Source: Acidobacteriaceae bacterium (GTDB taxonomy: Bacteria > Acidobacteriota > Terriglobia > Terriglobales > Acidobacteriaceae). From it: 64,000 nucleotides of DNA. The notes below the pieces were generated by a model. The model saw only the letters and a list, made by a program, of their open reading frames with translations. It made no database searches and was not told where the DNA came from. The position numbers were made by a program, and so were the translations under genes. How positions within the stretch are numbered: position 1 is the first letter of the stretch; each line of letters begins with the position of its first letter. This document shows positions 1-40,263 of the stretch, piece by piece. The DNA is taken from positions 6,142-70,141 of the forward strand of contig DAHXNK010000001.1 in NCBI GenBank assembly GCA_027365415.1. Reading direction: 5' to 3'.

Positions 1-2
1 AT

Positions 3-878
3 GAAGACCCCCACGCGCATGTGCGGACGGAGTTTGCCTTTGATATCGACCAGTTAAGCCATCAGCGTTTTGCGCCTGCAAACTACCTGGAGCGTGTTGG
101 ATTGCAGGTTCCGCGCAAGCTGCTGGAACGCGCTTTTTTTGAGACGTATGGATTGACGCTGCGCTCCCAGCTCGGCCACGAAGCGCCCGCGATTCATAGT
201 TACCGCTCCTCGGTGCGACACTTCATCCCCCGGATTGCGTATGCGGAGGCGTTGATCCATAAAAATGATTTTCCTGCGGACAGCACCGGGCCGGAGTTTC
301 AGAAATACCAAGCCCGGCTGGCAAAGGCCGATACCGCGAGTGGCTGGAGCAAATATCGTCACAAGCCGGGCGTAGGCACGCATCTGATGGCCTTTGCCAT
401 TCGGATTACGCCAAAGATAGGCGTGTTTTCCATCCTTGCCATTCGCGGCCCAACTGCGGAAACTGAGGGTAAGTACGTGACCAGCCTCAACAATACCGAT
501 GATGCCTTCGATCAGATCCTAGGGCAACTTCGGATGCAGCCGCACAACCTGCTGCACTTGCCGAATCTCGATCTCGATACGGGTTCTGCGATTCAACCAG
601 GAACCTACCGCTTGACGGATGCAACGTATGCAAAGCTGCTGCATCGAATTACAACAAAGCCCACCCGGCTGGTTCCTGCTGGATTGAAGCGGAATCTGCT
701 GGATTTTTACTCCGATCCGAACGCGCCGATCGCAACCAGGAAAAATGCGCGGGCCTGGAGGAGTGTGCAGCGGGATCTGCCAATCCTGCAAGGCATGCAA
801 ACCGTAACGCGGCGCCAAGCGAAGCAGATTGCGGACGGGATAACGAGCGGAAACGAAGAAACGGATATTCTGAAATAG
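3..878 (+). CDS. hypothetical protein, 5' end cut by the window edge
   Basis: Frame 3 is open from nt 3 to TAG 876-878, so the GTG at 21 in the track is internal. The stop is directly followed by the ATG of the next gene (TAGATG). No motif I can name. Confidence 0.5.
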   Translation, partial: EDPHAHVRTEFAFDIDQLSHQRFAPANYLERVGLQVPRKLLERAFFETYGLTLRSQLGHEAPAIHSYRSSVRHFIPRIAYAEALIHKNDFPADSTGPEFQKYQARLAKADTASGWSKYRHKPGVGTHLMAFAIRITPKIGVFSILAIRGPTAETEGKYVTSLNNTDDAFDQILGQLRMQPHNLLHLPNLDLDTGSAIQPGTYRLTDATYAKLLHRITTKPTRLVPAGLKRNLLDFYSDPNAPIATRKNARAWRSVQRDLPILQGMQTVTRRQAKQIADGITSGNEETDILK

Positions 879-2183
879 ATGCTACGCGACTTATATGCAA
901 AATGGATGTTTGACTGGGAGACGCGTCTGACCACGCGCGACACCAATCGTCGGATTCGCCCGCTGGAGTGGGGTTTCGACTGGCTTGCCGACTGGATCGA
1001 TTCCCTGCCCGATGCGCGACGTGTGCCTATGCAACAGGACATGGCCTCCAAGGATCCGGCGCGCATGGAAGCGGCGATGCTGGCGGTGAATGACAGCATC
1101 CTCGCCTACAGTGACCGTTTCTACGGCTACAATCCACCCACGGATTTTCGTCTGGAGGAGCGGTATCCGCAGTTGTTTCCCACGAATGTGCGCCCGGAGA
1201 CGCTGCGCGAGGATGCGCGACTGAAGCGTCTGGCGGCGGAAGGTCGCCTGCCTCCCGCGCAATTTTTGCGCTTCACCTCGCCGATACGGACACCCTACCC
1301 GGAGAATAATCGGGTGAACGCGCGCTGGTATCCCGCGCCAGCAGAAAAACAGGCGGGCAAGCCCAAGCAGGCCATGATCGTGTTGCCGCAGTGGAATGCC
1401 GATGCCTTCAGCCACAATGATTTATGCAGCATCTTCAACCACTTTGGCATCTCCGCGCTGCGACTCAGCAATCCGTTTCACGACATTCGCCGCCCGGCGG
1501 AACTGGAGCGCTCCGACTACGCCGTCAGCGCTAACATTGGCCGCACCATTGCCACCAACCGCCAGGCGGTGGTGGACATTCGCAGTTGCCTAGACTGGCT
1601 GGAAACGCAGGGCTATGAGCAATTTGGCATTCTGGGCACCAGTCTTGGCTCCTGTTACGCATTTATTGCCAGCGCGCACGATCCGCGCCTGCGCGTGCAT
1701 GTCTTCAACCACGCCGCCACATGGTTTGGCGATGTCGCCTGGACCGGGCAGAGTACGCGCCACCTTCACACCGCCTTTGAGCAAGCCGGATTAACGCAGG
1801 CTCGCCTGCGCGCCTTGTGGTCGGGAATTAGCCCAATGGTCTATATGGATTTGTTTGCCGGAATCGCGCCGATTCGTCAACAAGGGGGCGATGCTCCGGC
1901 GGCATGGCCGCGCAAGCGGTCGCGTATGATTTATGCGCCGTATGATCTGACTTTTCTGCCGGAGTTCTCCTTGCAGGTCATCGAGCAATTTAAGCAGCAT
2001 GGCCTGGACTTCGACGTAAAAGTCCTGCCCTGCGGCCACTACACTACGGGGGAATTTCCGTTTAAGTACATCGACGGCTGGTACATGGGATCGTTTGTAT
2101 ATGCGGCCTTCAAAAGGCTGGCGAAAGAAGGCTGCGGAAGCACATCGCCGCCGCAAATGGAATGCGTTGCGCTATCGGCGTAA
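879..2183 (+). CDS. alpha/beta-fold serine hydrolase family protein
   Basis: 434-aa ORF with a nucleophile-elbow G-x-S-x-G ('ILGTSLGSCYAF') and a C-terminal His ('LPCGHYTTGEF'). Abuts the upstream ORF. Confidence 0.7.
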   Translation: MLRDLYAKWMFDWETRLTTRDTNRRIRPLEWGFDWLADWIDSLPDARRVPMQQDMASKDPARMEAAMLAVNDSILAYSDRFYGYNPPTDFRLEERYPQLFPTNVRPETLREDARLKRLAAEGRLPPAQFLRFTSPIRTPYPENNRVNARWYPAPAEKQAGKPKQAMIVLPQWNADAFSHNDLCSIFNHFGISALRLSNPFHDIRRPAELERSDYAVSANIGRTIATNRQAVVDIRSCLDWLETQGYEQFGILGTSLGSCYAFIASAHDPRLRVHVFNHAATWFGDVAWTGQSTRHLHTAFEQAGLTQARLRALWSGISPMVYMDLFAGIAPIRQQGGDAPAAWPRKRSRMIYAPYDLTFLPEFSLQVIEQFKQHGLDFDVKVLPCGHYTTGEFPFKYIDGWYMGSFVYAAFKRLAKEGCGSTSPPQMECVALSA

Positions 2184-2188
2184 CAGGA

Positions 2189-2355
2189 AGGGACGGCATC
2201 GCGACGTGATCGACATTCTGGCCTCCCGCGTGGTGGATCGCGCGGACAAGCCCACTGATGTGGCGTACAAGCTGCGCAGCCCAGACAATTTTCGCAGCAA
2301 CAGCCGGGAGTTGGAGATCGAAATTCTCGGCCTGCGCCCGACGAAGATGGAATAG
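2189..2355 (+). pseudogene. recJ: recJ relic: two fragments of the recJ 3' half fused in frame, with no start codon
   Basis: Hand alignment: 2189-2253 matches the reverse complement of 38546-38610 at 58/65. 2257-2381 matches the reverse complement of 37926-38050 at 116/125. The peptide RHRDVIDILASRVVDRADKP..DVAYKLRSPDNFRSNSRELEIEILGLRPTKME* parallels RecJ WHRGVIGILASRVVDRVGKP and its C-terminus. The 495 nt between the two blocks in recJ are absent. Confidence 0.85.
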
Positions 2356-2390
2356 ACGGCAGAGATGCAACCAGCATTCTCTGACCCTGC

Positions 2391-2431
2391 CCATTCAAGC
2401 CTGCTTTTGGCTTGAGTGGACGGGCCTTTTT
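2391..2431 (+). terminator. REP-type hairpin followed by a T-tract (putative terminator after the hydrolase gene and recJ relic)
   Basis: ccattcaagcc-tgctttt-ggcttgagtgg is an 11-bp stem with one G:U pair. It is followed 7 nt later by TTTTTTATT. The same element occurs at 37884-37916. Confidence 0.5.
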
Positions 2432-2435
2432 TATT

Positions 2436-2493
2436 CCCAGGTCTCAAAAGCGAGACCCTTCGACAAACTCAGGGCAGGCTCTGGGGCACCCGG
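2436..2493. repeat. REP-like intergenic element (core ggtctc-aaaagc-gagacc ... ggggcacccgg)
   Basis: 6-bp perfect stem at 2440-2457 plus a conserved tail 'ctggggcacccgg'. A related copy lies at 12133-12166 (gtcgcaaaagcgagacacggggcacccgg). Confidence 0.6.
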
Positions 2494-2498
2494 CACGA

Positions 2499-2930
2499 TC
2501 ACTCTACAGGCGCGTTGGGTGCGATTTCCCAGACTTTGAATCTTTCATATAGTTCGACTCTAATTCGTTCCTTCGGTGAGAGGTCGGGGGTAAGAAGGGC
2601 AGGGGTGTCAAGCCCAAAGATGTCGGTATGCGCTCGATTATCTGGCAACCCCTCAACATTTTGGGTAGGCGAATGGATTACTGTCAATCCTCTGACTTCT
2701 CGAACCTGTCCAGCAATCATTTTTAGAACAGCAAACCGTTCTGGTCTGCCCTGCCTTGCGCGGGTCTCAGCAGCGGTGCTGTACTTTCCCCAATCGGTGG
2801 ACATTGACCCTTTGTTCTCGCTGAAAATTCCTGTTGGCGGCCGTAAATGATTAGGCCCCAGCCATCCTACTGGAACCCTATAAAACAGCGCGTCAGCATC
2901 AGGAATTTCTTCTACTGGCCAATCGTTCAT
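2499..2930 (-). CDS. orphan protein C of the three-gene cassette (143 aa from ATG 2930; 149 aa if TTG 2948 is used)
   Basis: ATG 2930-2928 overlaps the TGA of the upstream ORF by 1 nt (TGATG). G+C is low relative to the flanks. No recognisable domain. Contains the string 'GLPDNRAHTDIFG'. Confidence 0.65.
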   Translation of the reverse strand: MNDWPVEEIPDADALFYRVPVGWLGPNHLRPPTGIFSENKGSMSTDWGKYSTAAETRARQGRPERFAVLKMIAGQVREVRGLTVIHSPTQNVEGLPDNRAHTDIFGLDTPALLTPDLSPKERIRVELYERFKVWEIAPNAPVE

Positions 2931-3487
2931 CAATTGTTCACCAGCCAAGAAACGAGTTCAGCCCCGGCTTCAGAGGGTTCAAACCTTCCTGATATCTCGC
3001 TCTTGGCTTTCTTTCCGTAGTAATTTGCGATGTCTTCCGCTGCTGGGAAGTTGATTAGCAGCATTCGGCCGCCCTTCTCCCAGAAGAGGTCAATACTACC
3101 GTGGTCTGCTGGTCCAATTTTTGGTATTCCCATGCCCACTACGTTTGCCTTATGCGCATGGAGCATGAGTCTTCGGAGAAATCCTGTAGCGCGATCCAGC
3201 GTTTCTTTCGAGTAAGGCTCGAAATCTTCTACTTCCATGTCGTTTTCGATATTCAACACGAAATCTGCCGCCGCAATTTCCGTCTCCATTGCGCGCCGTT
3301 CTTCTTCAATTGCAGCCGCCGGAGACGTTAATGTGGTGGAATACGACTTAACCTCTTCATTTAATTCAGGACTTGTGAAACCCAACTGCTCGTTTTTACG
3401 AGTACGAGTACGAACCTCATACGGGGGCCTGAATTTTCGATGGTTTGAATAACTATCCAACGATCTTGTAAACACGCTGTGTGCCAT
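2930..3487 (-). CDS. orphan protein B of the three-gene cassette (185 aa)
   Basis: ATG 3487 is preceded by AGGAG in the 11-nt gap after the stop of ORF A. The N-terminal third is basic and low-complexity; the C-terminal part looks globular. No motif recognised. Confidence 0.65.
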   Translation of the reverse strand: MAHSVFTRSLDSYSNHRKFRPPYEVRTRTRKNEQLGFTSPELNEEVKSYSTTLTSPAAAIEEERRAMETEIAAADFVLNIENDMEVEDFEPYSKETLDRATGFLRRLMLHAHKANVVGMGIPKIGPADHGSIDLFWEKGGRMLLINFPAAEDIANYYGKKAKSEISGRFEPSEAGAELVSWLVNN

Positions 3488-3498
3488 GTGGATGTCTC

Positions 3499-4188
3499 CT
3501 ATTTTTCAGCAGCAGGTGTCAAGATAGGTGTATTGGAACTATCGGCGAATTCCCTGAGCGCTTTCTCTTTCTTTATGGCCCGAGCGATCACATCACCTGC
3601 TGATACAAGGTCTTCTGTGTCCAGCGCGAAATAGATCGTGTCAGTCTTGCCGTTGTGAGATGCACGAATTGCAAGCTGATGAACTATGACCCCGGCAGCG
3701 ACCTTCAAATCGTCTCCCGAACAGATCGGCCTTAGGTCTGTAATTACCTTCGCTGAACGAAAAGTCCTATCATTTGCTCGCAATAGGATGTTTCCCTTTG
3801 CGATCAGTTCCAAGCACTTTGATTTCGATAGTCTCGCAAGCCTGCCTCTCAGAATCTCCTCGTCTGAGTCTGAGAGTTCGACGACACGGTCGCTTTTAAT
3901 CTCTTCCACTACGGCCTGTACGATCACGTCAGTGTCAACCTGCCATGAATAGCCCGTTCCAGCGAGGCTAACGAGCGAGCTAACAATGTTGTCTAAGTCT
4001 GAAACTTCAGCTAAATCAGGCTCTTTGCGCAGATGCGAAATCAATGCCTGTCTGTCCAGGGTCGGCATTGCTTCACTGAGCGCGCGTTCCAAGCCAGCAA
4101 GGGCCGGGTCTGTCAGCTTTAACAGGCTAGCAAGGGTGCCCTGCTCATCGGCAGGTATTTCGATTGAGTTGATTCGAGTCGTAGTCAT
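3499..4188 (-). CDS. orphan protein A of the three-gene cassette (229 aa)
   Basis: First ORF of the cassette, with ATG at 4188-4186. The upstream leader (4189-4290) is AT-rich. No motif recognised. Confidence 0.65.
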   Translation of the reverse strand: MTTTRINSIEIPADEQGTLASLLKLTDPALAGLERALSEAMPTLDRQALISHLRKEPDLAEVSDLDNIVSSLVSLAGTGYSWQVDTDVIVQAVVEEIKSDRVVELSDSDEEILRGRLARLSKSKCLELIAKGNILLRANDRTFRSAKVITDLRPICSGDDLKVAAGVIVHQLAIRASHNGKTDTIYFALDTEDLVSAGDVIARAIKKEKALREFADSSNTPILTPAAEK

Positions 4189-4291
4189 CTTAGTGGTAGC
4201 GCTTAAAAACAGTTCAATACAACATCAATAATAATAAATTCTGAACTTCGATATCCAGCCGTCCTGCTGATTCATACTCTATCAGGCTGAG

Positions 4292-4325
4292 ACAGGCGGG
4301 TGCCAAACACTAAGCTCCCGCCTGT
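4292..4325 (-). terminator. stem-loop just downstream of recA (9-bp stem, no U-tract)
   Basis: acaggcggg (4292-4300) pairs with cccgcctgt (4317-4325) around a 16-nt loop. It starts 8 nt after the recA stop. On the minus strand it is not followed by a T run. Confidence 0.45.
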
Positions 4326-4333
4326 AATTTCAT

Positions 4334-5422
4334 TTACTTCTTTCCGGCTTTGACGACCTCTTGGGCGGTTGCGGCTCCGTTGGTTGGCACCGCTGGAATC
4401 TCCGCCACGTCGCCCTTGTTGGCGATGCCGAGCTTCTGGCGCAACTGACTTTCGACGCGGGCAAAGGTCTCCTTGTTGTCCTTGAAGTGCTGGCGCACAT
4501 TCTCGCGGCCTTGACCAATCCGCTCGCCGCTAAAGCTGTACCACGCGCCGGACTTTTCGACGATATTGTGCAGCACGGCCAGGTCGAGTACGTCGCCCTC
4601 GCGGGAGATGCCCTCGCCGTAGAGAATGTCAAACTCCGCCTCGCGGAAGGGCGCAGCCACCTTATTCTTGACGATCTTGACCTTGGTGCGCGAGCCAACG
4701 ATAACATCGCCCTCCTTGACCGCCCCGATGCGGCGAATGTCCACGCGCACGGAGGAATAAAACTTGAGCGCGCGACCGCCCGTGGTGGTTTCGGGATTGC
4801 CGAACATCACGCCAATCTTTTCGCGAATCTGATTGATAAAGATCAAGCTGGTGCGAGATTTTGAGACCGTTCCCGTCAGCTTACGCAGCGCCTGCGACAT
4901 CAGGCGGGCTTGCAGGCCCATGTGCGAATCGCCCATTTCGCCGTCGAGTTCCGCCTTGGGCACCAGCGCAGCGACCGAATCGACAACCAGCACATCAATC
5001 GCTCCGGAGCGCACCAGCGCTTCGGTAATCTCCAACGCCTGCTCGCCGTAATCGGGCTGCGAGATGAGCAGGTTGTCGATATCGACGCCCAGCTTGCGGG
5101 CGTAGATGGGATCGAGCGCGTGCTCGGCATCAACAAAAGCGGCCAAGCCGCCGGCCTTTTGCGCCTCGGCGATGACTTGCAGCGTAATGGTGGTTTTACC
5201 GGAGGATTCTGGGCCAAAAATCTCAATGACGCGGCCACGGGGCAGGCCGCCGACGCCGAGCGCGGCATCGAAGGAGATCGATCCGGTGGAAATTACCGCA
5301 ATGGGAACGATCGCCTCTTTGCTGCCAAGGCGCATGATCGACCCTTTGCCAAACTGCTTTTCAATCTGAGCCAGCGCCAGTTCTACTGCGCGGGAGCGTT
5401 CTTTATCGTCTGCCATTGTCAA
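4334..5422 (-). CDS. recA: recombinase RecA
   Basis: 362 aa. Walker A 'GPESSGKTT'. Canonical RecA N-terminus '[18 protein letters not shown]' and L1/L2 regions. Confidence 0.98.
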
Positions 5423-25332: not shown

Positions 25333-27822
25333 TCAGACAATCAGGTTCAACGGGTAGGCGCGGCGCGGCGCATCGGGCGGATCCACAAATGGCTGGGACT
25401 GCCCTGCAACTGTAACCGAAGCGTAATACTCGACTGCCCGATCCTGCGTAGAAAATGGCCCCAGACTGGCCGTGTATACGCTTCGCCCGGCGTGCATGGC
25501 TGGCTGTGTTTCCCACTCGCTCTGGCCTTGCCGCCGAGTGTGGAACATCACCCCGCCCGCCTCTTGCACGCCGGGCGCAACGATAAAGAGACGCAGCGAT
25601 TCTCCGGGCTTCATCAGGGAGGGGCGCGTTGGAAGAAAGATTCGCGCCGGATTCGCCTGTGCAGGACGGATCGCCGTTTCGTATGCTTGATCCATCTCCG
25701 GCGGCAGATCGCCCACAAATTCCTGGATCGAGAGACGGAGACGCTCCAGCGATATCCGCACAAATTTATTTTGCATGGAGGCCAGTTGGCCCTGATCGTT
25801 GCGGGTTGCGATGATTGCCTGATACTCGATCATCCCTTGGCGCGCAAGAGGTGCAATCGAAAGCCAAAGCGGCACGCCTTGTTGCATCACATGAGCGCTG
25901 GCCTCCGGCTCCTTGCCCGCCACTCGCAACGTGACCGCATCTTCGAGTACAGCATTGAGTTTGTGCGCGGTCTCATACGCATCGCAGTACGGAACCATGA
26001 AGGCGATAAATCCCGCGAAGTAGCCGATGCGATTTTTTTCCAGCGGAGAGGTTGCCTCCGCCTGCAAATCCAGAAATCGCTTTGCGGTGGCGCGCTGGCT
26101 CGGCAGCACGGCGAGATCCGGCTCCGATGAGGCATAGAGAAATGCCTCGTCATAGTCCCCGGTAATCTCAATGCGGTTCGCGAAGCCCTCCTTGTTGTAC
26201 GTGCCCATAAACGTCGAAGAAATTGCGTGCTTGCTATCGCAATCGTTGAACAGGTCGGCAAGACGCCGCGCGCGATCTCCAGAAGCCATCGCCGCACAGA
26301 AGCTTCGGTAGTGCGTCGTCGCTGTCAGATGCTTGTTCCAACTGGCCCGCGCAAGGTAGGTTGCTGTGGGATCGACGATGCAGTGCCGCCAGTGGATTCC
26401 CATCACGCCCTGGCATCCAAAACTCCGCGCCCGCTTCATGTCCATCTCAAATCGACTGGCCCGGAACTGTGGAAGCCACATCGAAGGATCATCCTCCAGC
26501 CACGGGATGGGCCAGCGCTCACGTCCTTCGAGCTTTGCAAACTCTTCGCTGACGGGATCCCATCCCAGGGAGTCATTCAGCGCAGAAAATACAATGTCGT
26601 CGGGCAGTCTTTGGTGGAGAGACGTAAAATTGCGAACCACGCCGCCCCACCCGGCCAATACGAGCTTCTTATTGGGAGCATTCCTGCGCAAAAAATCATG
26701 CGCTTGCGCGAACGGGGTGATGGATAGCGGAATATTTTTCTTCCGGCTCTCCCAGTTCGCCTGTTCGTCCTCCCACAGCCAGACGTAATCGACCATCGGA
26801 TAGCGTTCGAGCAGGTCGCCCAAGCGGCGCTCCAGCAGGGCGCGCGCGGTGCGCGACTCAATAAATCCGCCGGGGCAGGACAGCGCCTCTGGCGGAAGCG
26901 CGCGCGCGATCTCCACCGGATTTTGATATGGCTCAAAGCCGATGCCAGTGCGGATGCCCAAGTCTGCGGCGAAGTTGAAGGCTGTGCGCATCATCTCTGT
27001 CGTCCGTCCGGCGATATCCCAGATATCTGCGCCGCTCCGCGTCGCATCCGCCCCAAATGTCTCCTGATCAAAGAATTGTGCCGCGCCCATCTTGTAGCCT
27101 GATGTGCGTTGTGGCAGATATCCCCAGCTTCGCATCGTGGTGTCTTCAAGGGCGGCGCGATGGCCAGCGCCAGCGAACTCAAACGAGAGATACGACTCTG
27201 CCAGCGGATCGTTCTGTGTATACACATGCATGCCAAACATGTTGAACCGCATACGCAGCATGGAGGCAAAGTATGCCTTGTAATCCTCAGGATTGTAGAT
27301 GCTGATGCAGTTGAGAAAATCCGGCCAGGGCAGCAGCCCGCGCGCGGCAAACTGCGGCGTTCCTATCCAAGGTTCCGAAGCCGCAGGCAACAGAAATGGC
27401 GCACGATCAATGGGAACCGTAATCCCATCAATCCCGAAGACCAGCCCCTGCCGTTCCAGAAAATCGAACACGGCGTAGAGCAATGCCTGTTCGCTGGATG
27501 CTTTAAAAATTGCGCCATTCTTGGAGGCAGATATCTTATATTCCTGATCGTTATTGAATGAGGAGCGGTCGATACGCAGCGTCAACACTACGCTCCCAGC
27601 AGCCTGCTGTCCACGGGACTCCACAATTTCTGGGGCGCTATCCAGGGAACGCAGGCCTGTAAGTACCTCCAGCGTGGCGAGCCGCACCTTCTGACTCGAA
27701 GCCGCCTGTGTCTCGATTGCAATGCGGCGTGGCCTTGGGACTTGGGCCACGCCTTGCGGTAGCTGTATAAGTCCACTCGCCGCCGCAAGCGCTCCCGACT
27801 TCATGAAGTCTCTGCGGTCCAC
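25333..27822 (-). CDS. TAT-exported putative glycoside hydrolase (family not assignable by eye)
   Basis: Twin-arginine signal 'MDRRDFMKSGALAAA'. 829 aa. N-terminal region resembles GH20b/GH67N-type domains. Backbone-like G+C. Confidence 0.6.
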   Translation of the reverse strand: MDRRDFMKSGALAAASGLIQLPQGVAQVPRPRRIAIETQAASSQKVRLATLEVLTGLRSLDSAPEIVESRGQQAAGSVVLTLRIDRSSFNNDQEYKISASKNGAIFKASSEQALLYAVFDFLERQGLVFGIDGITVPIDRAPFLLPAASEPWIGTPQFAARGLLPWPDFLNCISIYNPEDYKAYFASMLRMRFNMFGMHVYTQNDPLAESYLSFEFAGAGHRAALEDTTMRSWGYLPQRTSGYKMGAAQFFDQETFGADATRSGADIWDIAGRTTEMMRTAFNFAADLGIRTGIGFEPYQNPVEIARALPPEALSCPGGFIESRTARALLERRLGDLLERYPMVDYVWLWEDEQANWESRKKNIPLSITPFAQAHDFLRRNAPNKKLVLAGWGGVVRNFTSLHQRLPDDIVFSALNDSLGWDPVSEEFAKLEGRERWPIPWLEDDPSMWLPQFRASRFEMDMKRARSFGCQGVMGIHWRHCIVDPTATYLARASWNKHLTATTHYRSFCAAMASGDRARRLADLFNDCDSKHAISSTFMGTYNKEGFANRIEITGDYDEAFLYASSEPDLAVLPSQRATAKRFLDLQAEATSPLEKNRIGYFAGFIAFMVPYCDAYETAHKLNAVLEDAVTLRVAGKEPEASAHVMQQGVPLWLSIAPLARQGMIEYQAIIATRNDQGQLASMQNKFVRISLERLRLSIQEFVGDLPPEMDQAYETAIRPAQANPARIFLPTRPSLMKPGESLRLFIVAPGVQEAGGVMFHTRRQGQSEWETQPAMHAGRSVYTASLGPFSTQDRAVEYYASVTVAGQSQPFVDPPDAPRRAYPLNLIV

Positions 27823-27894
27823 GATCGATCCTTATCCTTTTATCCACACAAAGATGTACAAATATCAAGGACTCTACGGCATGGGGAAAAACTC

Positions 27895-33671: not shown

Positions 33672-35606
33672 ATGCTTCGGAGGAATATGCGTCGGAAATC
33701 CTTGCTTCTCCCCTGTCTCGTCTCGATTCTTGCTATCTCAACCAGCCACGCGCAAACAGGCCAGCCTGCGCCTACCGCTCCCAGCGCGGCCACGCCCATC
33801 ACGGTTGCGGTGGACGCGACTGACGCGCCGCGCAAGATGCTGCACGCGCATCTGACGATCCCCGTGCATCCCGGCGATGTGACGCTGCTCTACGCCAAGT
33901 GGATTCCCGGTGAGCATGAGCCGAGCGGCCCCATCGACAATCTTGCAGGCTTGGTGATTCAAGCCAACGGCCAGACGTTGTCATGGGTGCGCGACAGCAT
34001 CAATATGTGCGCCATTCATCTCCATGTGCCTGCCGGGGTCACGGTGCTTGATGTGCGCGATGATTTTCTGGCGACCGCAGCGGCAACGGGCTTTTCTGCC
34101 GGAGCCTCCACCAGCGACAATCTGGCGATGATTAGCTGGAATGAAGTGATGCTCTACCCGCAGGGCAAGGTCGCTGCCGATATTCCTGTCACGGCCTCGG
34201 TGACGCTGCCTGATGGCTGGCAATATGGCACGGCGCTCACCTCCACAGGGCATGAGGGAAATACCACGCGCTTTGCCACCGTGTCGCTGGAGCAACTGAT
34301 CGACTCACCCGTGCTGAGCGGGCGGTACTTCAAAGAGATTCCGCTGGCTCCAGAGGTAACGCCGAAGCACTATCTCGACCTAGCCGCCGATGGGCCAGAG
34401 GATTTAGATCTTCGACCGAAGACCGTGGCCGCCTTCAACAATCTGGTGCGCGAAGCGGGCGCGCTGTATGCCTCGCGCCATTACACCAGCTATCACTTTC
34501 TGGTGACGCTCAGCGATCAGGTAGCGCACTTTGGGTTGGAGCATCATCAATCCAGCGACGACCGCGTGCGCGAGAAAACATTTTTACAGCCCGACCTGTT
34601 GCTGCTGGAAGGCGATTTGCTGCCGCATGAGTTCACGCACTCCTGGAATGGAAAATATCGTCGCCCGGAAGGGCTGCTCTCCCCGGATTACCAGACTCCG
34701 ATGCGGGATGATTTGTTGTGGGTCTACGAAGGTCTGACGGAGTATCTGGGGGGCGTGCTGGCCACGCGCAGCGGCATCTGGACGGAGCAGCAGTATAGAG
34801 ACGCGCTGGCCAACACGGCGGCAATGCTCAATGCGCGTCCGGGCCGCACCTGGCGCAATCTACAGGACACGGCGACGGCGGCGCAGATTCTCTACGACAG
34901 CAGCGACCAGTGGGATAACTGGCGACGCGGCGTGGATTTCTATCCTGAGGGCGAACTGATCTGGCTCGACGTGGATACCACGATTCGGCAGCAGAGCCAC
35001 GGCAGAAAGTCGATTGACGATTTCACTGCGCGCTTTCATGGTCTGGGCGGGAACACGCCGCCCAAGGTGGTGCCGTATACCTTCGATGATGTCGTCAGCA
35101 ATCTGAACGCGGTGCAGCCCTATGATTGGGCAAGCTTTCTCCGCGAACGGCTGAATGCCAAATCGCCAAACGCGCCAATGGGCGGCATTAAGCACGGCGG
35201 CTACCAACTGATATATACCGACACGCCGAATGAAATGATGCAGGCGCGCGAATCCCTGAGTGGCGTGAATGCCTGGTTCTCCCTAGGCCTGCTGGTTGCG
35301 CCGGATGGCGGCATTCGTGATGTGTTGATCGACTCGGCAGCGTACAAAGCGGGCCTGGGGCCGGGGATGAAGATCGTTGCCGTCAACAGCCGCCAGTATG
35401 ACGACAGTCGAATGCGCGCTGCGATCCGCGATTCCAGCGGCAGCAAAACGCCGATCCAGATGATTGTCGAGAACACGGGATATTTCCGCGTGATCAACAT
35501 CGACTATCACGGCGGAGCGCGCTACCCCTCGCTCCAGCGCGTAAGCGCCACGCCGAATTTGCTGGATGAAATTCTGACACCGAGAACAGCGCCACCGAAG
35601 AATTAG
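33672..35606 (+). CDS. M61 family glycyl aminopeptidase with C-terminal PDZ domain
   Basis: Signal peptide, zinc motif 'HEFTHSWNGK', and PDZ-like 'AAYKAGLGPGMKIVAVN'. Confidence 0.88.
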   Translation: MLRRNMRRKSLLLPCLVSILAISTSHAQTGQPAPTAPSAATPITVAVDATDAPRKMLHAHLTIPVHPGDVTLLYAKWIPGEHEPSGPIDNLAGLVIQANGQTLSWVRDSINMCAIHLHVPAGVTVLDVRDDFLATAAATGFSAGASTSDNLAMISWNEVMLYPQGKVAADIPVTASVTLPDGWQYGTALTSTGHEGNTTRFATVSLEQLIDSPVLSGRYFKEIPLAPEVTPKHYLDLAADGPEDLDLRPKTVAAFNNLVREAGALYASRHYTSYHFLVTLSDQVAHFGLEHHQSSDDRVREKTFLQPDLLLLEGDLLPHEFTHSWNGKYRRPEGLLSPDYQTPMRDDLLWVYEGLTEYLGGVLATRSGIWTEQQYRDALANTAAMLNARPGRTWRNLQDTATAAQILYDSSDQWDNWRRGVDFYPEGELIWLDVDTTIRQQSHGRKSIDDFTARFHGLGGNTPPKVVPYTFDDVVSNLNAVQPYDWASFLRERLNAKSPNAPMGGIKHGGYQLIYTDTPNEMMQARESLSGVNAWFSLGLLVAPDGGIRDVLIDSAAYKAGLGPGMKIVAVNSRQYDDSRMRAAIRDSSGSKTPIQMIVENTGYFRVINIDYHGGARYPSLQRVSATPNLLDEILTPRTAPPKN

Positions 35607-35867
35607 AGCGAATCCCCCAGATGATGAAATACAAATCCGAAGGATGTCATTCTTCAAGGTGCACACTTCGTCGATGCATCTAACATTCTCTGGATTCTTC
35701 ATCGGGTGCCCATCCTCGCCGCAGCGAGTGTGGGAGGAAAAATCTAAGGAAGCTCTGAACAAGTCAGCGTCTTGAAGGGGCGGGGCTTTAGCCCCTGAGG
35801 GACAGCAGTGGAACTTGATCAGAGTTTCCCTACATTCAATCCGAGGCAGTTGTATCGGGAACGTACC

Positions 35868-35913
35868 GCACCCATCCCACCCTTCGCAAAAAACACGAAG
35901 GATGGGGCACCTG
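35868..35913. repeat. REP-like hairpin element (ccatcc..ccttcg-caaaaaaca-cgaaggatgg ggcacctg)
   Basis: Imperfect palindrome with the 'ggggcacc' tail shared with 2481-2493 and 12156-12166. It replaces the 3' end of the transposase relic. Confidence 0.5.
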
Positions 35914-35914
35914 T

Positions 35915-36404
35915 CTTGTGGAAATTCATCGCGGCGGCTGCCAGGATCGCGTTGATCGCATTTCCAGCGTCGCTCTTCAGCCGATTGCCTTCCAATCGGT
36001 GTTCGCTCTTCAAATGTCCGATGCGTGGCTCCACTGCGGCGCGCCGTTTCATCCATTGCCATAGCGCTCGTGGAGTTCTGCCTCTTCGCCGCTTATCGAC
36101 ATGTGCGGCGACCGCACCGTCATAGCCATGGCCTTGATAATCTATGTCCACGTGCGCTTCGCCGACCTTGGCACCGACGAATCATCCACCGCGACTGCTG
36201 ACCGCTACACTGACCTTGTTGCCGAACTCGTACTGCTTGCCCGCCCTGGCTGGGATGATAGGTGCTGCCCAGAGTCTGCTCAAACGACGACCAATCACGG
36301 CAAAGAGCGAGTCGAACCAATGGATGGCTCCTGTCGATCAACTGCTCCAAATCTATCTGAAATAATTCCAGATGTGGCTGCCCAGCTTCGCGCTTGGGCC
36401 GCAT
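35915..36404 (-). mobile_element. IS5-family insertion-sequence relic (transposase gene with large internal deletion and frameshift)
   Basis: N-terminal piece 'MRPKREAGQPHLELFQIDLEQLIDRSHPLVRLA..' and C-terminal piece 'DYQGHGYDG...MKRRAAVEPRIGHLKSEHRLEGNRLKS..NAILAAAAMNFHK' resemble IS5-type DDE transposases. About 300 central codons are missing and the pieces are in different frames. Confidence 0.75.
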
Positions 36405-36567
36405 CCTTTTTCCCCAGAAAACTTCGTCGATTTACATTACACGCCTTCGGAGAAATTATAGACCGCCCACTATCAAGAATCATCTGCTTTATAGGCCTTT
36501 TGCAAGTTTTTCAGGATCAACTAGGGTAGCCTGTCTTCTGCTGGCCGATGTGAACTTTCTCCGCCGC

Positions 36568-37821
36568 CTATAGTGCAGCCGCATGTGCCTCTTGCCCAGA
36601 CACGGATGGATGATCCTCTACCAGCCTGGCAATATGCGGTAAAAGAACAATGTCGAGGGGGAATTGATAGCGGGGATCTACTGCCGTCAAGAGGAATGGC
36701 AGGACGTAGAGGAATGCCGCCGCGATGAAAACTTTGTCATACAAATCCAGCCCCCGCCGCGCCTTTAACATCAGCAGGACAAGCCAGATAGGAATGACCA
36801 GAGCCATCGCGACAACAGGAATCGTCCACAGGCTTAGCCCTCGATGGAGACGCCTATATGGAGACAGAAAAATATAGAGCTTGACCGCCGTAATTTTCAG
36901 CTCATTGATTGGATGATTTCGTATATATTCCAGACCGTGATGGATGAAGTATCGCTGTAATTGGGGGGTATATCCCTGTAACTTAGGATTGGCGATGATG
37001 TCCACGTCCTGATAGTTGAGACCTTCTGCCTTCATGAACAGCGACACAGACTGTTCTGGTGTTTGGTTTTGCAGCATGGCTTTGATGGTGAACTCATTAT
37101 GTCCCTGCACAAAATTGTAAGGGCCGTCCTGGGGAAGAAAAAAGCTGCCATGTGCGAGGGTGTTGATGGATATCAGCGTTCCGGCGCTGACGACTCCACC
37201 AACGATGAGTGCAAGCACTTTCCTGCGCCACCGAGCAGGGGAAGCAAAGATGGCATATACCAGCAGGGGCAATAGAAGAAGCATATTGGGGCGCTCTGCC
37301 ATGCCGCATCCAAAAACAATTCCCGTGCCGATTACTAAAGAAATTCTGGAACCCATCTGGACGATCAAAACGAGACACAGTAGCAGAACGACCATTACAA
37401 AAACCGAGAAATCGACATCCCAGAGCTTGACGACGGAAGCTGGAAGCTGCGGATATACCGCAGTCACCAAGCCTGCCATAAGAGCATACCGACTTCCGAC
37501 CTCGATCCTCCGCGCAAGTTTCCACACGGAAACGACCGTGAGGACATACATGGCAGTCTGCAAAATCTCCATGCCATGCCGCCCTAACGCCTGGATGCTC
37601 AGCCCCACCAGCCATGTGTATTCAATCGGAAATGCAACCTCCGCAATATGGCCAGTACGTAGGTATTCCTGTACATATTCGTAAAAGGCCGGCACTGGAA
37701 TGGCCGCTTGGGTCGCAAGCAAAGCGGCAAGAGCTGCAACAAGCGGCGTGCCCAGAAGCAGCGCCCAGTAGCCGAGGGAACGATCATCGTCGAGCCATGA
37801 ATGAACATAAGATGCATGCAT
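36568..37821 (-). CDS. polytopic membrane protein, GT39/ArnT-like glycosyltransferase (PMT_2-like)
   Basis: 417 aa, about 10 TM helices, loop pattern like 4-amino-arabinose/mannosyl transferases. G+C lower than the backbone (38-47% by line counts). Confidence 0.55.
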   Translation of the reverse strand: MHASYVHSWLDDDRSLGYWALLLGTPLVAALAALLATQAAIPVPAFYEYVQEYLRTGHIAEVAFPIEYTWLVGLSIQALGRHGMEILQTAMYVLTVVSVWKLARRIEVGSRYALMAGLVTAVYPQLPASVVKLWDVDFSVFVMVVLLLCLVLIVQMGSRISLVIGTGIVFGCGMAERPNMLLLLPLLVYAIFASPARWRRKVLALIVGGVVSAGTLISINTLAHGSFFLPQDGPYNFVQGHNEFTIKAMLQNQTPEQSVSLFMKAEGLNYQDVDIIANPKLQGYTPQLQRYFIHHGLEYIRNHPINELKITAVKLYIFLSPYRRLHRGLSLWTIPVVAMALVIPIWLVLLMLKARRGLDLYDKVFIAAAFLYVLPFLLTAVDPRYQFPLDIVLLPHIARLVEDHPSVSGQEAHAAAL

Positions 37822-37883
37822 TTTTTTTGCTCCTGTGCATTCTATCGCGCACCTTGATTTTTACGAAGTACTTTGCAGGTGCC

Positions 37884-37916
37884 CCATTCAAGCCTGTTTT
37901 CTTTTGGCTTGAGTGG
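37884..37916. repeat. REP-type hairpin, second copy of the 2391-2419 element
   Basis: ccattcaagcc-tgttttctttt-ggcttgagtgg has the same orientation on the plus strand as the copy at 2391, although the adjacent recJ sequences are inverted. Confidence 0.6.
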
Positions 37917-37951
37917 GGGGAACCGGAGAATGCTGGCTGCATCTCTGCCGT

Positions 37952-39784
37952 CTATTCCAGCTTCGCCGGGCGCAGGCCGAGAATTTCGATCTCCAACTCC
38001 CGGCTGTTGCCGCGAAAATTGTCCGGGTCACGCAGTTTGTACGCCACATCGACGAGGGAATTCTCGCCGAGTTCCATTGCCGCCAGTTGCTCGGCCCAGT
38101 TCCAACCGAGGGCTGTGTATTGCGCTCCGGTTGGCCCCTGCGCCAGCCGCAGACGCACATGGCGCTCCTTCATAATGCGTGGCGCGGCGCTGATGCGAAC
38201 ATGACGCGCCAGAAAAATCGGCTCAGGATTGTCCATGCCATGCGGAGCCAGACGCGCCAGCCAGGTTGCCAGCGCGGGTGTCAGGCGGTCGAGTGGCAAC
38301 TCCAGTTCGCAGACAAGTTCGCTGGCAAAGGCATCGGGAGTCATCCGTTCTGCGGCGTAGGCGGCAAGGCGCTGGCGCAGCTCCGGCACGCGGGCCGAGG
38401 GAAGCGAGAAGCCCACAGCGTGCGCGTGGCCGCCATAGCGCGTAAAAAGATCGTTGCAGGTGGCGAGCGCGCCGAGCAGATGAAACGAAGGAATCGAGCG
38501 CCCGGAGCCATACGCCTCGCCCGCCTCATGCGTCAGCACCAGAGCGGGCTTGCCCACGCGATCCACCACGCGAGAGGCCAGAATGCCAATCACGCCGCGA
38601 TGCCATCCCTCCCCGTCCAGAACCAATAAAGCGGAGTCTGACAGCGAGGCATCGTCGCGCAAACGTTGCTCAATCTCGTTGAGTGCCTGCAACTCGATAT
38701 TGCGGCGCTCCGTGTTCAGGCGATGCAGTTTTTCTGCTAGCTGGCGCGCATGGGCGGGATCGCGCGTGGTGAAAAGATCGACGACATCGCTGGCAACATC
38801 CATGCGTCCGGCGGCGTTGAGTCGGGGAGCGATACGGAAGGCAATGTCGCGCGCGTTGAGACGGCGGCTGGAATCAATCTCCGCCAGTTCCAACAATGCG
38901 CGCAGGCCGGGATGCACGGGGTTCGCCAATTGCTCAATCCCCAGCGCAGTAACGACGCGATTTTCTCCCAGCAATGGAACCGAATCGGCAATGGTAGCCA
39001 GCGCCAGCAATTTAAGAAACGACGGCAGTAGCTTGGCGCGCGCGCGCTCCCGATCATTGGCTTCGAGCAGCGCCTGCGCCAGCTTGAAGGCCACGCCCGC
39101 GCCGCAGAGATGTTTGCAGGAATAGGCGCAGCCGGGCTGGTTGGGGTTCAGCACGGCAATGGCTGCGGGAATGCCCAGCGTTGCGTCGGCCAGATGATGA
39201 TCGGTAACGATCAAATCCAGTCCCAGCCGCTGCGCCTCGCTCGCTGCGGCAAAGGCGCGGATGCCATTGTCCACGCTGATGACTAGTCGCGCGCCATCGG
39301 CTGCCGCCTGCGCCATATACTCCGCCTGCATCCCATAGCCATCGCGCAGTCGGTGGGGAACGTGGAAGCGACAGATGCCGCCGAGTGTTTCAATGGCCGT
39401 CTTCAGCAGCACCACGGCAATAGTGCCGTCCACATCGTAATCGCCGTAGATCAGAACGGGTTGCTGCTGCGCGATGGCTTTCTGGACACGCGCCACGGCT
39501 GTCGTCATGCCAAGCATGGCATACGGGTTCAGCAGATGATCGAGATGCGGCGAAAGGAATGCTTCGGCCTCTTGCGCCGTGCGCGCGCCGCGAGCGCACA
39601 GCAATTCCGCAATGATGAGAGGCATCGCCGCTGCTCGCGCCAAAGTCTCTGCGGCAGCATCGGGCGCGCCAACCTTCCAATGCTGGGCCGAGGTAACGGC
39701 ATTCTCTGCACGGCTCGCAGGAGGAGGCGCAGCGCTGGCAACTGCGGGAAGTTCTCCCATCTCTGCCGCAGGAGAAAGACTCAT
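37952..39784 (-). CDS. recJ: single-stranded-DNA-specific exonuclease RecJ
   Basis: DHH motifs 'IYGDYDVDGT', 'LIVTDHH' and 'VDNG', and DHHA1 'GGHAHAVG'. ATG 39784 overlaps the stop of the upstream ORF (ATGA), giving 610 aa. The 39877 extension is unlikely. Confidence 0.93.
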   Translation of the reverse strand: MSLSPAAEMGELPAVASAAPPPASRAENAVTSAQHWKVGAPDAAAETLARAAAMPLIIAELLCARGARTAQEAEAFLSPHLDHLLNPYAMLGMTTAVARVQKAIAQQQPVLIYGDYDVDGTIAVVLLKTAIETLGGICRFHVPHRLRDGYGMQAEYMAQAAADGARLVISVDNGIRAFAAASEAQRLGLDLIVTDHHLADATLGIPAAIAVLNPNQPGCAYSCKHLCGAGVAFKLAQALLEANDRERARAKLLPSFLKLLALATIADSVPLLGENRVVTALGIEQLANPVHPGLRALLELAEIDSSRRLNARDIAFRIAPRLNAAGRMDVASDVVDLFTTRDPAHARQLAEKLHRLNTERRNIELQALNEIEQRLRDDASLSDSALLVLDGEGWHRGVIGILASRVVDRVGKPALVLTHEAGEAYGSGRSIPSFHLLGALATCNDLFTRYGGHAHAVGFSLPSARVPELRQRLAAYAAERMTPDAFASELVCELELPLDRLTPALATWLARLAPHGMDNPEPIFLARHVRISAAPRIMKERHVRLRLAQGPTGAQYTALGWNWAEQLAAMELGENSLVDVAYKLRDPDNFRGNSRELEIEILGLRPAKLE

Positions 39785-40263
39785 TCCATCCCTTCCTCGC
39801 CAGAGGAGGAATGGGGATCTAAGACATCCTGCATATAGTCGATGGCCTCCACCAGATGGCGGTATTGGCCGTACCACTTCGTCACCGTTTCATGCACGAA
39901 GAGAAATCCCTGATGCGCGAAGGCCAGCTCAATATGCCCGATCTTGCCGATGTGTTGCAGCAGCTTGTGCGCTTCGTCAATGTCGGCGGCCAGATCATTC
40001 AGGCGGGTCAGCTCCTGCAACTCTTCGAGCAGCATTTCCAGCGTGGCCGCCTCCAGTTGATCCTCGCCGATCATGATGAGCGGGACATTCACGGTCTTCG
40101 CCATCTCGACGAAATCCTTCCAGCTATCCATGTTGTCGGGGTCGTTCCACCAGACGCGGGGCGCATCCTCTGGAATCAGCGCGGGGAAGTGGCGAATGCC
40201 GTGGCCTTCAATAAAGGCAATCATGTCGTCTTTCAGAAAAGTTAAATTGTCGGATTCAGTCAT
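39781..40263 (-). CDS. hypothetical acidic protein translationally coupled to recJ
   Basis: 160 aa with backbone G+C. Its stop TGA overlaps the recJ ATG. No motif recognised. Confidence 0.6.
   Translation of the reverse strand: MTESDNLTFLKDDMIAFIEGHGIRHFPALIPEDAPRVWWNDPDNMDSWKDFVEMAKTVNVPLIMIGEDQLEAATLEMLLEELQELTRLNDLAADIDEAHKLLQHIGKIGHIELAFAHQGFLFVHETVTKWYGQYRHLVEAIDYMQDVLDPHSSSGEEGME

What the first reader, a model, noticed from the sequence alone, without database searches (positions are those of the whole stretch)
2189..2381. In-frame recJ relic in inverted orientation to the intact recJ about 35.5 kb away
2189-2253 and 2257-2381 are the reverse complement of two separate pieces of the intact recJ: 38546-38610 at 58/65 identity and 37926-38050 at 116/125, including the stop codon and 26 nt downstream. 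They are fused in frame, and the intervening 495 nt are lost. The relic starts 6 nt after the stop of the alpha/beta hydrolase gene, marking a breakpoint. The two recJ-derived copies are inverted repeats bracketing about 35.5 kb that includes recA, and both copies border low-G+C accessory DNA. This is the footprint expected of an old duplication or inversion, and the repeats could still mediate inversion of the segment. The REP hairpin next to each copy (2391-2419 and 37884-37916) keeps the same plus-strand orientation, so it is not part of the inverted duplication.
Basis: seen in the sequence. Interest (0 to 1): 0.6.

Follow-up and report, generated by a model that had tools for sequence, protein, structure and literature searches.

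The report
Dead recJ fragment at a rearrangement scar
A short, decayed, non-functional copy of the end of the DNA-repair gene recJ sits right after a hydrolase gene in this soil acidobacterium; it marks where the chromosome was once re-joined, but the 35 kb between the copy and the real recJ has not been flipped.

Summary
Window 2183-2256 and 2257-2401 are the reverse complement of recJ 38543-38616 (64/74) and 37906-38050 (129/145), with 492 nt (164 codons) missing between them. They are the only long inverted repeats in the window, and the genome has no other copy. An independent JGI assembly of the same population reproduces both loci.

The fragment evolves neutrally. Of its 14 private changes, 11 fall at codon positions 1 or 2, and dN/dS against recJ is about 0.8. 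It dates to about the split from the sister species.

The sister clade lacks the fragment. Its homology stops exactly at 2189, and at the same spot it carries a relic of another gene, the ETF-QO 5' end.

Three outgroup genomes show recJ directly followed by the M61 peptidase, as here. So recJ sits at its ancestral place and the 35.5-kb interval is not inverted. The relic is therefore an inserted, inverted partial copy at a lineage-specific junction that joins the hydrolase to the accessory slot downstream of recA. One edge of the junction is a microhomology (GACGGG-A) and the other is a REP palindrome.

This is ordinary in kind, though a tidy example.

The parts
879..2183 (+). alpha/beta hydrolase (ABHD18-like) gene. 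Its stop codon and about 6 nt after it are the last bases shared with the sister species.
   Evidence: Pfam PF09752. G001 homology covers window 1-2189 at 93%.
2183..2256 (+). relic piece A: copy of recJ codons 422-445 (DHHA1 region), 64/74 identical to rc 38543-38616. Its left edge overlaps the microhomology GACGGG(G/A)A.
2257..2355 (+). relic piece B: copy of the last 32 recJ codons plus the stop (TAG 2353-2355). It joins piece A after a 492-nt in-frame loss.
2356..2388 (+). copy of the recJ 3' flank: 9 unique nt plus the half REP-type 'tail' ATGCARCCAGCATTCTC. Homology to recJ fades out here.
2389..2419 (+). REP palindrome in canonical + orientation (not inverted with the relic). With 2409-2426 and the T-run it also forms a terminator-like site for the hydrolase transcript.
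2435..2494 (+). second REP-type repeat (REP2), multi-copy across the family
2499..4290 (-). low-G+C three-gene accessory cassette downstream of recA. It is absent from G001, which has a Fic gene in this slot.
4334..5422 (-). recA. Its 3' flank is variable in every genome compared.
33672..35606 (+). M61 peptidase, the ancestral convergent neighbour of recJ
36568..37821 (-). GT39/PMT_2 glycosyltransferase, inserted between recJ and M61 relative to the outgroups
37884..37916 (+). REP palindrome downstream of recJ, canonical + orientation. It is present at the same place in G001.
37906..38050 (-). recJ 3' end and flank, the source of relic piece B
38543..38616 (-). recJ internal stretch, the source of relic piece A
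37952..39877 (-). intact recJ (DHH, DHHA1, RecJ_OB) at its ancestral locus

Best explanation
The 2183-2388 stretch is a dead, neutrally drifting partial copy of this genome's own (or a same-genus) recJ 3' region. It was pasted in inverted orientation into a lineage-specific junction that joins the hydrolase 3' end to the REP-bounded accessory slot downstream of recA. The intact recJ stayed at its ancestral locus next to M61, so the template was copied and not moved, and the 35.5 kb in between was not inverted.

The copy was made near or just after the split from the sister species.

Most likely mechanism (inferred): break repair or replication template switching that copied from recJ. One edge formed at a short microhomology right after the hydrolase stop. 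The other edge formed at a REP palindrome, which can pair in either orientation. The 492-nt gap is either a template jump in that same event or a later deletion from a once larger duplicate.

The relic has no function of its own. It is probably carried in the 3' UTR of the hydrolase transcript, up to the REP/T-run terminator.
For: Shown:
- Alignment and uniqueness of the copy.
- The same sequence in an independent JGI assembly, and the same recJ-GT39-M61 side there.
- The sister species G001, and all 11 other members of the hydrolase 90% cluster (several MAGs), lack the relic and instead have the hydrolase followed by etfA.
- Homology to G001 breaks at window 2189.
- Neutral pattern: 14 relic-private changes in 171 nt, 11 of them at codon positions 1 or 2, including W>R and three G>D in the DHHA1 motif. 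dN 0.11 and dS 0.13 against recJ, compared with dN/dS 0.13 for recJ between G000 and G001.
- Timing: the G000-derived states at codons 430, 616 and 640 are absent from the relic. One state (codon 445) is shared with G000. The genus-specific TTG at codon 628 is present.
- recJ-M61 adjacency in outgroups G062, G130 and G158.
- The hydrolase and recA are about 520 kb apart on one contig in G062, so their adjacency here is derived.
- The microhomology GACGGG(G/A)A is seen by comparing the G001 hydrolase flank with recJ.
- Both REPs are in + orientation, and the REP family is dispersed, with 24 canonical copies.
- A terminator-like site at 2409-2426.
- Parallel scars: an ETF-QO 5' relic at the same hydrolase junction in G001, while etfA-ETFQO adjacency is ancestral; and a dnaG 5' relic with an in-frame stop elsewhere on this contig.
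Against: - The mechanism is inferred from end-products only.
- No microhomology is visible at the piece A / piece B junction (sequences).
- Templated insertion in one step cannot be told from duplication followed by deletional decay.
- The ancestral neighbour of the hydrolase 3' end is unknown, because every genome compared differs there.
- A same-genus foreign source for the fragment is not excluded.
- With only 171 coding nt, the dating rests on fewer than 10 informative sites.
- No transcript or read data could be examined.
Confidence: 0.8

Rival explanations
1. Staggered-break (or repeat-mediated) inversion of the whole 35.5-kb interval. The inverted recJ duplicate would be the by-product, as at Drosophila inversion breakpoints, and the arms might still flip the segment.
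For: Inverted duplicates of a unique gene end lie at the two ends of an interval. Synteny with G001 breaks at both 2189 and 37930. The model is documented in PMC1885836. A 44-nt perfect run could in principle support rare RecA-dependent exchange.
Against: recJ-M61 adjacency is shared with three outgroups. The interval therefore has its ancestral orientation next to recJ, and the break at 37930 is a derived state of G001, which has an IS and a restriction-modification island there. The model would need an inversion followed by an exact re-inversion. Both available assemblies show a single isomer. The arms are now only 86-89% identical.
Confidence: 0.06
2. Hitch-hiked flank. The mobile low-G+C cassette sat downstream of recJ in a same-genus donor and was transferred, or moved within the genome, together with a piece of the donor's recJ. 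It was integrated next to the hydrolase by illegitimate, microhomology-guided joining.
For: The relic directly adjoins REP-REP2 and a cassette that is absent from G001 and found in an unrelated context in a Terracidiphilus MAG. The recJ 3' flank is itself an insertion hotspot, holding GT39 here and an IS plus a restriction-modification system in the G001 clade. The relic branches near the G000/G001 split rather than clearly inside G000. There is microhomology at the left junction.
Against: No genome was found with the cassette next to recJ. The REP beside the relic is flipped relative to the recJ-derived flank, which a one-piece transfer does not predict. Most of the relic's divergence is post-inactivation change, so no diverged donor is required.
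Confidence: 0.12
3. The open frame (86 aa from TTG 2095, or 49 aa from GTG 2206 as called by JGI) or its RNA is functional. It could be a RecJ C-terminal mini-protein, or a sense/antisense RNA that acts on recJ mRNA.
For: The fusion is in frame and the frame is open to the original stop. The JGI gene caller predicted a 49-aa gene. Read-through from the recA operon would give an RNA antisense to recJ.
Against: dN/dS is about 0.8 and conserved DHHA1 residues carry radical replacements. There are no Pfam hits and no Rfam hits. The relic is absent from the sister clade. An in-frame loss has a 1-in-3 chance expectation.
Confidence: 0.02

Closest known systems
Inverted duplications of unique genes at inversion breakpoints (staggered-break model; Ranz et al. 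2007, PMC1885836)
   Same: A partial, inverted copy of a single-copy gene end lies at a synteny breakpoint, and the parent gene is kept intact. Breakpoint re-use is also seen here, since the same hydrolase 3' end is a junction in both sister lineages.
   Different: The segment between the two copies is not inverted relative to the ancestral order. This is a bacterial genome, and a REP palindrome lies at one edge.
Templated insertions / microhomology-mediated template switching at rearrangement junctions (MMBIR/FoSTeS; e.g. PMC5120786, review PMC12426944)
   Same: The filler at the junction is copied from a nearby locus that itself stays unchanged. Two separate template pieces appear in one insertion, and there is a short microhomology at the outer junction.
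   Different: Only one of the junctions shows microhomology. The two-piece structure could equally be a later deletion. The event is ancient, so the junctions have since drifted.
REP-mediated duplication join-points in enterobacteria (from memory: Shyamala, Schneider & Ames, EMBO J 1990; not checked here)
   Same: A dispersed REP palindrome lies exactly at the edge of a duplicated segment.
   Different: Those are tandem direct duplications between two REPs. Here the copy is inverted, dispersed by 35 kb and heavily truncated.
Duplicated gene 3' ends at attL/attR of integrative islands
   Same: A copy of the 3' end of a housekeeping gene, including its stop codon, lies next to accessory DNA.
   Different: The repeats here are inverted, not direct. 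The interval is core, syntenic DNA (recA, bshA, tmk, M61) and not an island. The copy carries an internal 492-nt loss and starts far inside the gene.

Membership tests
Non-functional gene relic (pseudogene fragment) | Clear nucleotide homology to an intact parent gene in the same genome | tested here: met
   64/74 and 129/145 identical, E 4.6e-19 and 2.9e-49
Non-functional gene relic (pseudogene fragment) | Truncated so that catalytic parts are missing | tested here: met
   Only codons 422-445 and 610-641 of the 641 remain. The DHH domain and the GGH-bearing part of DHHA1 are gone.
Non-functional gene relic (pseudogene fragment) | Substitution pattern without purifying selection | tested here: met
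   11 of 14 private changes are at codon positions 1 or 2. dN 0.11 and dS 0.13.
Non-functional gene relic (pseudogene fragment) | Lineage-restricted presence | tested here: met
   Absent from G001, from 11 other hydrolase-cluster members and from 40 relatives
Inversion flanked by inverted duplications (staggered breaks) | Inverted duplicate of unique sequence at both ends of the segment | tested here: met
Inversion flanked by inverted duplications (staggered breaks) | The enclosed segment is inverted relative to the ancestral gene order | tested here: not met
   recJ-M61 adjacency is shared with G062, G130 and G158
Inversion flanked by inverted duplications (staggered breaks) | Alternative isomers or junctions exist in the population | not testable with these tools
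Two assemblies show one isomer.
Templated insertion by template switching (MMBIR-like) | Microhomology at each junction | tested here: inconclusive
   GACGGG(G/A)A at the hydrolase/recJ junction. None is evident at the A|B junction. The third junction lies at a REP palindrome.
Templated insertion by template switching (MMBIR-like) | The template locus is left intact and in place | tested here: met
   recJ is intact and at its ancestral locus
Island att-site duplication | Direct repeats flanking a non-core element with an integrase | tested here: not met
   The repeats are inverted. The interval is made of blocks syntenic with G001 and outgroups. An integrase was not specifically searched for.
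REP elements (hairpin 2389-2419 and 37884-37916) | Short imperfect palindrome, many intergenic copies, conserved across relatives | tested here: met
   24 canonical copies in G000 and dozens of hits across the family
REP elements (hairpin 2389-2419 and 37884-37916) | Cognate RAYT (Y1/HUH transposase) in the genome | tested here: inconclusive
   One Y1_Tnp match of 27 bits with an HVHLLL motif at C132:4401-4634, but no REP found beside it

The most novel reading that the evidence does not exclude
In this genus, palindromic REP elements may act as entry points for break repair or template switching that copies the ends of nearby housekeeping genes into distant junctions. That would give a recurrent, REP-linked 'copy-paste scar' process. 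Three independent gene-end relics fit it: the recJ 3' end, the ETF-QO 5' end and the dnaG 5' end. Two of them lie within 8 nt of the same hydrolase stop codon in sister lineages, which could point to a fragile or site-specific break point there.
Probability: 0.15. Interest if true: 0.5.

Novelty: new member of a known kind. Interest (0 to 1): 0.27.

Why it matters
By itself the relic is a harmless scar. It is useful in three ways:
- As a dated, base-resolved record of how gene order changes in small, REP-rich Acidobacteriaceae genomes, where synteny blocks are only a few kb long.
- As a caution for annotation. JGI called a 49-aa gene in the relic.
- As one of three gene-end relics in two sister species, which together suggest that duplicative junctions, not clean cuts, are how rearrangements inside or beside essential genes survive.

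It gives no evidence for a programmed or reversible inversion around recA.

Tried and rejected
- Metagenome pattern scans: the A|B junction pattern gave 0 hits. The hydrolase 3' end pattern gave 2 chance hits unrelated to this genus.
- recJ ancestrally downstream of the hydrolase: rejected. No recJ lies near the hydrolase in 10 family genomes or in G062.
- Assembly chimera: rejected by the independent JGI contigs.
- Known RNA: no Rfam match in 2000-2700 at E up to 1.
- Protein function of the ORF: no Pfam hit.
- G024 as an outgroup for recJ: its syntenic recJ is only 31-35% identical, so it was unusable for polarising sites.
- Full reconstruction of the rearrangement path between G000 and G001: the block order +1+2+3+4+5+6 against +4+1+6+2+5-3 needs several events, and contig ends hide some joins. 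I left it unresolved.
- Cassette next to recJ in another genome: the only homologous locus found, in a Terracidiphilus MAG, has neither recJ nor recA nearby.
- Exact look-up of the window's hydrolase in the contig index returned nothing. Cluster members were used instead.

Full report
**1. The observation**

The window is C110:6142-70141 of a 2.09-Mb, 203-contig MAG. Names attached to close homologues place it in the Acidobacteriaceae.

A computed local alignment lengthens both pieces until they abut:
- 2183-2256 = reverse complement of 38616-38543 (64/74).
- 2257-2401 = reverse complement of 38050-37906 (129/145).

The missing recJ stretch is therefore 492 nt (164 codons), which is still in frame. 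These are the only inverted repeats of at least 40 nt in the window. Within the genome the relic matches only the two recJ pieces, with E 2.9e-49 and 4.6e-19.

recJ (37952-39877, minus strand) has DHH, DHHA1 and RecJ_OB domains. The gene ending at 2183 is an ABHD18-like hydrolase.

A JGI metagenome assembly (3300024473) contains two contigs of the same population:
- One is 99.98% identical to the window over 8183 nt and includes hydrolase-relic-cassette-recA-MCP.
- The other carries recJ-GT39-M61-Mrr.

The relic is therefore real, and both ends show the same arrangement in a second assembly.

**2. Is it alive?**

No. I compared the 171 coding nt three ways, using the relic, recJ of this genome (G000) and recJ of the sister species G001. 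The counts were 14 relic-private changes, 4 G000-private and 5 G001-private.
- Eleven of the 14 relic-private changes fall at codon positions 1 or 2 and change residues. These include W>R and three G>D in the conserved DHHA1 stretch.
- dN is 0.11 and dS is 0.13 against recJ. Between G000 and G001, recJ itself has dN 0.030 and dS 0.227.
- The 86-aa ORF has no Pfam match, and the region has no Rfam match.
- The in-frame fusion has a one-in-three chance expectation.
- A terminator-like hairpin with a T-run at 2409-2426 suggests the relic simply rides in the hydrolase 3' UTR. This is inferred.

**3. When and from what**

I polarised the variable sites with closer outgroups: RecJ 79%, 71% and 68% identical, plus a second G001-clade strain.
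- The relic keeps the ancestral state at codons 430, 616 and 640, where G000's recJ has since changed.
- It shares one possibly derived state with G000, at codon 445.
- It carries the genus-specific TTG at codon 628.

The relic branch (0.082 changes per site) is about 0.7 of the per-lineage dS between the two species. So the copy came from a recJ of this genus and was made close to, or just after, the split of the two species.

**4. Relatives**

G001 is the same genus, about 90% identical in DNA. It matches window 1-2189 and then stops. It matches again from 37930 onward. It has no recJ relic, and its only recJ-like DNA is its own recJ.

All 11 other members of the hydrolase's 90%-identity cluster come from several MAGs and metagenomes of the G001 clade. 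They show the hydrolase followed by the convergent etfA-etfB.

In G001, the 81 nt between the hydrolase stop and the etfA stop contain a diverged fragment of about 70 nt. It derives from the 5' end of the ETF-QO gene. Intact ETF-QO is elsewhere in G001, at C12. In G000 and in outgroups G062 and G130, etfA is followed directly by ETF-QO. So that relic is a second, independent scar. Its junction lies within about 8 nt of the junction in G000.

**5. Was the interval inverted?**

In G062, G130 and G158, recJ is followed by the convergent M61 peptidase, with gaps of only 56-178 nt. G000 has the same order and orientation, with a GT39 gene and a small ORF inserted. The intact recJ therefore sits at its ancestral locus with its ancestral neighbour.

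The break at 37930 relative to G001 is G001's own derived state. G001-clade strains carry an IS (rve) and a restriction-modification island there.

A staggered-break inversion (PMC1885836) predicts that the enclosed segment is flipped, which would put M61 next to the hydrolase. That is not what is seen. Only an inversion followed by an exact re-inversion would fit.

By contrast, the hydrolase-recA adjacency is derived. In G062 the two genes lie about 520 kb apart on one contig. The 3' neighbours of both genes differ in every genome compared.

**6. Anatomy of the junction**

*Left edge.* After the hydrolase stop, G001 reads TGACGGGAAAA and recJ reads GGACGGGGAGGGA. The join lies within the shared GACGGG-A. 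This is a microhomology junction; that reading is inferred.

*Right edge.* Homology to the recJ flank covers the stop, 9 nt and a half REP-type 'tail', and it fades at about 2381-2388. The REP palindrome follows immediately.

The REP family has 24 canonical copies in G000 and many more across the family. Its polarity is defined by a T.G wobble, a T-rich loop and a TGC prefix. Both REPs, beside the relic and beside recJ, are in + orientation. The REP beside the relic is therefore not part of the inverted copy, and the junction lies at or in the palindrome.

*Inner junction (A|B).* No microhomology is visible.

Taken together, the template was copied and left in place. The result is an inverted partial copy. 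One edge is a microhomology and the other is a palindrome able to pair in either orientation. This fits ectopic copying during break repair or a replication template switch. It also fits a larger duplicate that later decayed by deletion. I cannot separate these two.

A same-genus donor fragment that hitch-hiked with the mobile cassette remains possible. The flipped REP argues against it, and so does the absence of any genome with the cassette next to recJ.

**7. Can the arms still recombine?**

The longest perfect runs are 44 and 22 nt in piece B and 16 nt in piece A. Rare exchange is conceivable.

**8. Context**

G000 and G001 differ by many block moves over this contig, and block edges coincide with REP-type repeats.

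A further relic lies on the same contig, outside the window at C110:84231-84367. It consists of the first 45 or so codons of dnaG primase, is 91% identical to the real gene on C55, and has an in-frame TAG. A REP2-like repeat follows it. Its orthologue in G001 sits about 190 nt downstream of recJ. Gene-end relics beside REP-type repeats are thus recurrent in this genus.

**Verdict**

It is an ordinary kind of feature, a pseudogene fragment at a rearrangement junction, and a clean, datable example of one. Interest is low to moderate.

Noticed in passing
G000 contig C110:84231-84367 (about window coordinate 78090-78226, beyond the window end); G001 C74:2029-2099 (L017): Another gene-end relic. 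It consists of the first 45 or so codons of dnaG primase, is 91% identical to the intact gene at C55:16800+, has an in-frame TAG, and is followed by a REP2-like repeat. An orthologous relic in G001 shares derived bases and the upstream TTCCAC, and lies about 190 nt downstream of G001's recJ.
   Followed up: partly
G001 C22:4550-4625 (L016), between etfA and the hydrolase: A diverged fragment of about 70 nt from the ETF-QO 5' end sits at the hydrolase 3' junction of the sister clade, within about 8 nt of where the recJ relic starts in G000. Intact ETF-QO is on G001 C12. etfA-ETFQO adjacency is ancestral (G000, G062, G130).
   Followed up: yes
window 2183-2355: 10 of the 14 relic-private substitutions are G>A on the + strand, and none are C>T (binomial p about 0.008 given the G/C content). 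This is a strand-asymmetric mutation pattern in neutrally evolving DNA.
   Followed up: partly
window 35607-37951: The GT39/PMT_2 gene plus a 77-aa ORF is an insertion into the otherwise tight recJ-M61 gap. G001-clade strains carry an IS (rve) plus an N6_N4 methyltransferase/BsobI-like restriction system in the same slot. The recJ 3' flank is thus an accessory-gene hotspot.
   Followed up: partly
window 4290-4334 region and G001 C20:3225-4857 (L022): The slot downstream of recA holds different cargo in each genome: a COMMD-like three-gene cassette here, and a Fic-domain gene (HPFEDGNGR motif) plus a small gene in G001. G062, G158 and G024 each have other neighbours.
   Followed up: partly
G024 C7:37196-38866 (L061, L064): The recJ at the syntenic position of G024 has conserved upstream neighbours but is only 31-35% identical to this recJ, whereas neighbouring genes are 55-74% identical. 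This may be a xenologous replacement of recJ.
   Followed up: no
G000 C132:4401-4634: This is the single Y1_Tnp/HUH-type transposase-like gene in the MAG (27 bits, HVHLLL motif). It is a candidate RAYT for the REP families, but no REP copy was found beside it.
   Followed up: partly
window 37917-37942; G000 C126:43450-43540 and five other sites: The 'unique' 26 nt after the recJ stop are mostly the left half of a third REP-type element (AATCCAGAGAATGCTGGCTGCAT...CTGGATTCTTC). Only 9 nt after the stop are truly recJ-specific.
   Followed up: yes
G000 C55:6613-6777 and C136:19022-19186: A 165-nt, 87%-identical duplicate covers a tRNA 3' end plus downstream DNA, next to a P4-type integrase N-terminus on C136. 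This is an ordinary att-site pair of an integrated element.
   Followed up: no
window 25400-27853: The 829-aa ORF (25333-27822) is missing from G001, whose flanks join directly at C33:15260-15280. This is a presence/absence difference inside an otherwise collinear block.
   Followed up: no
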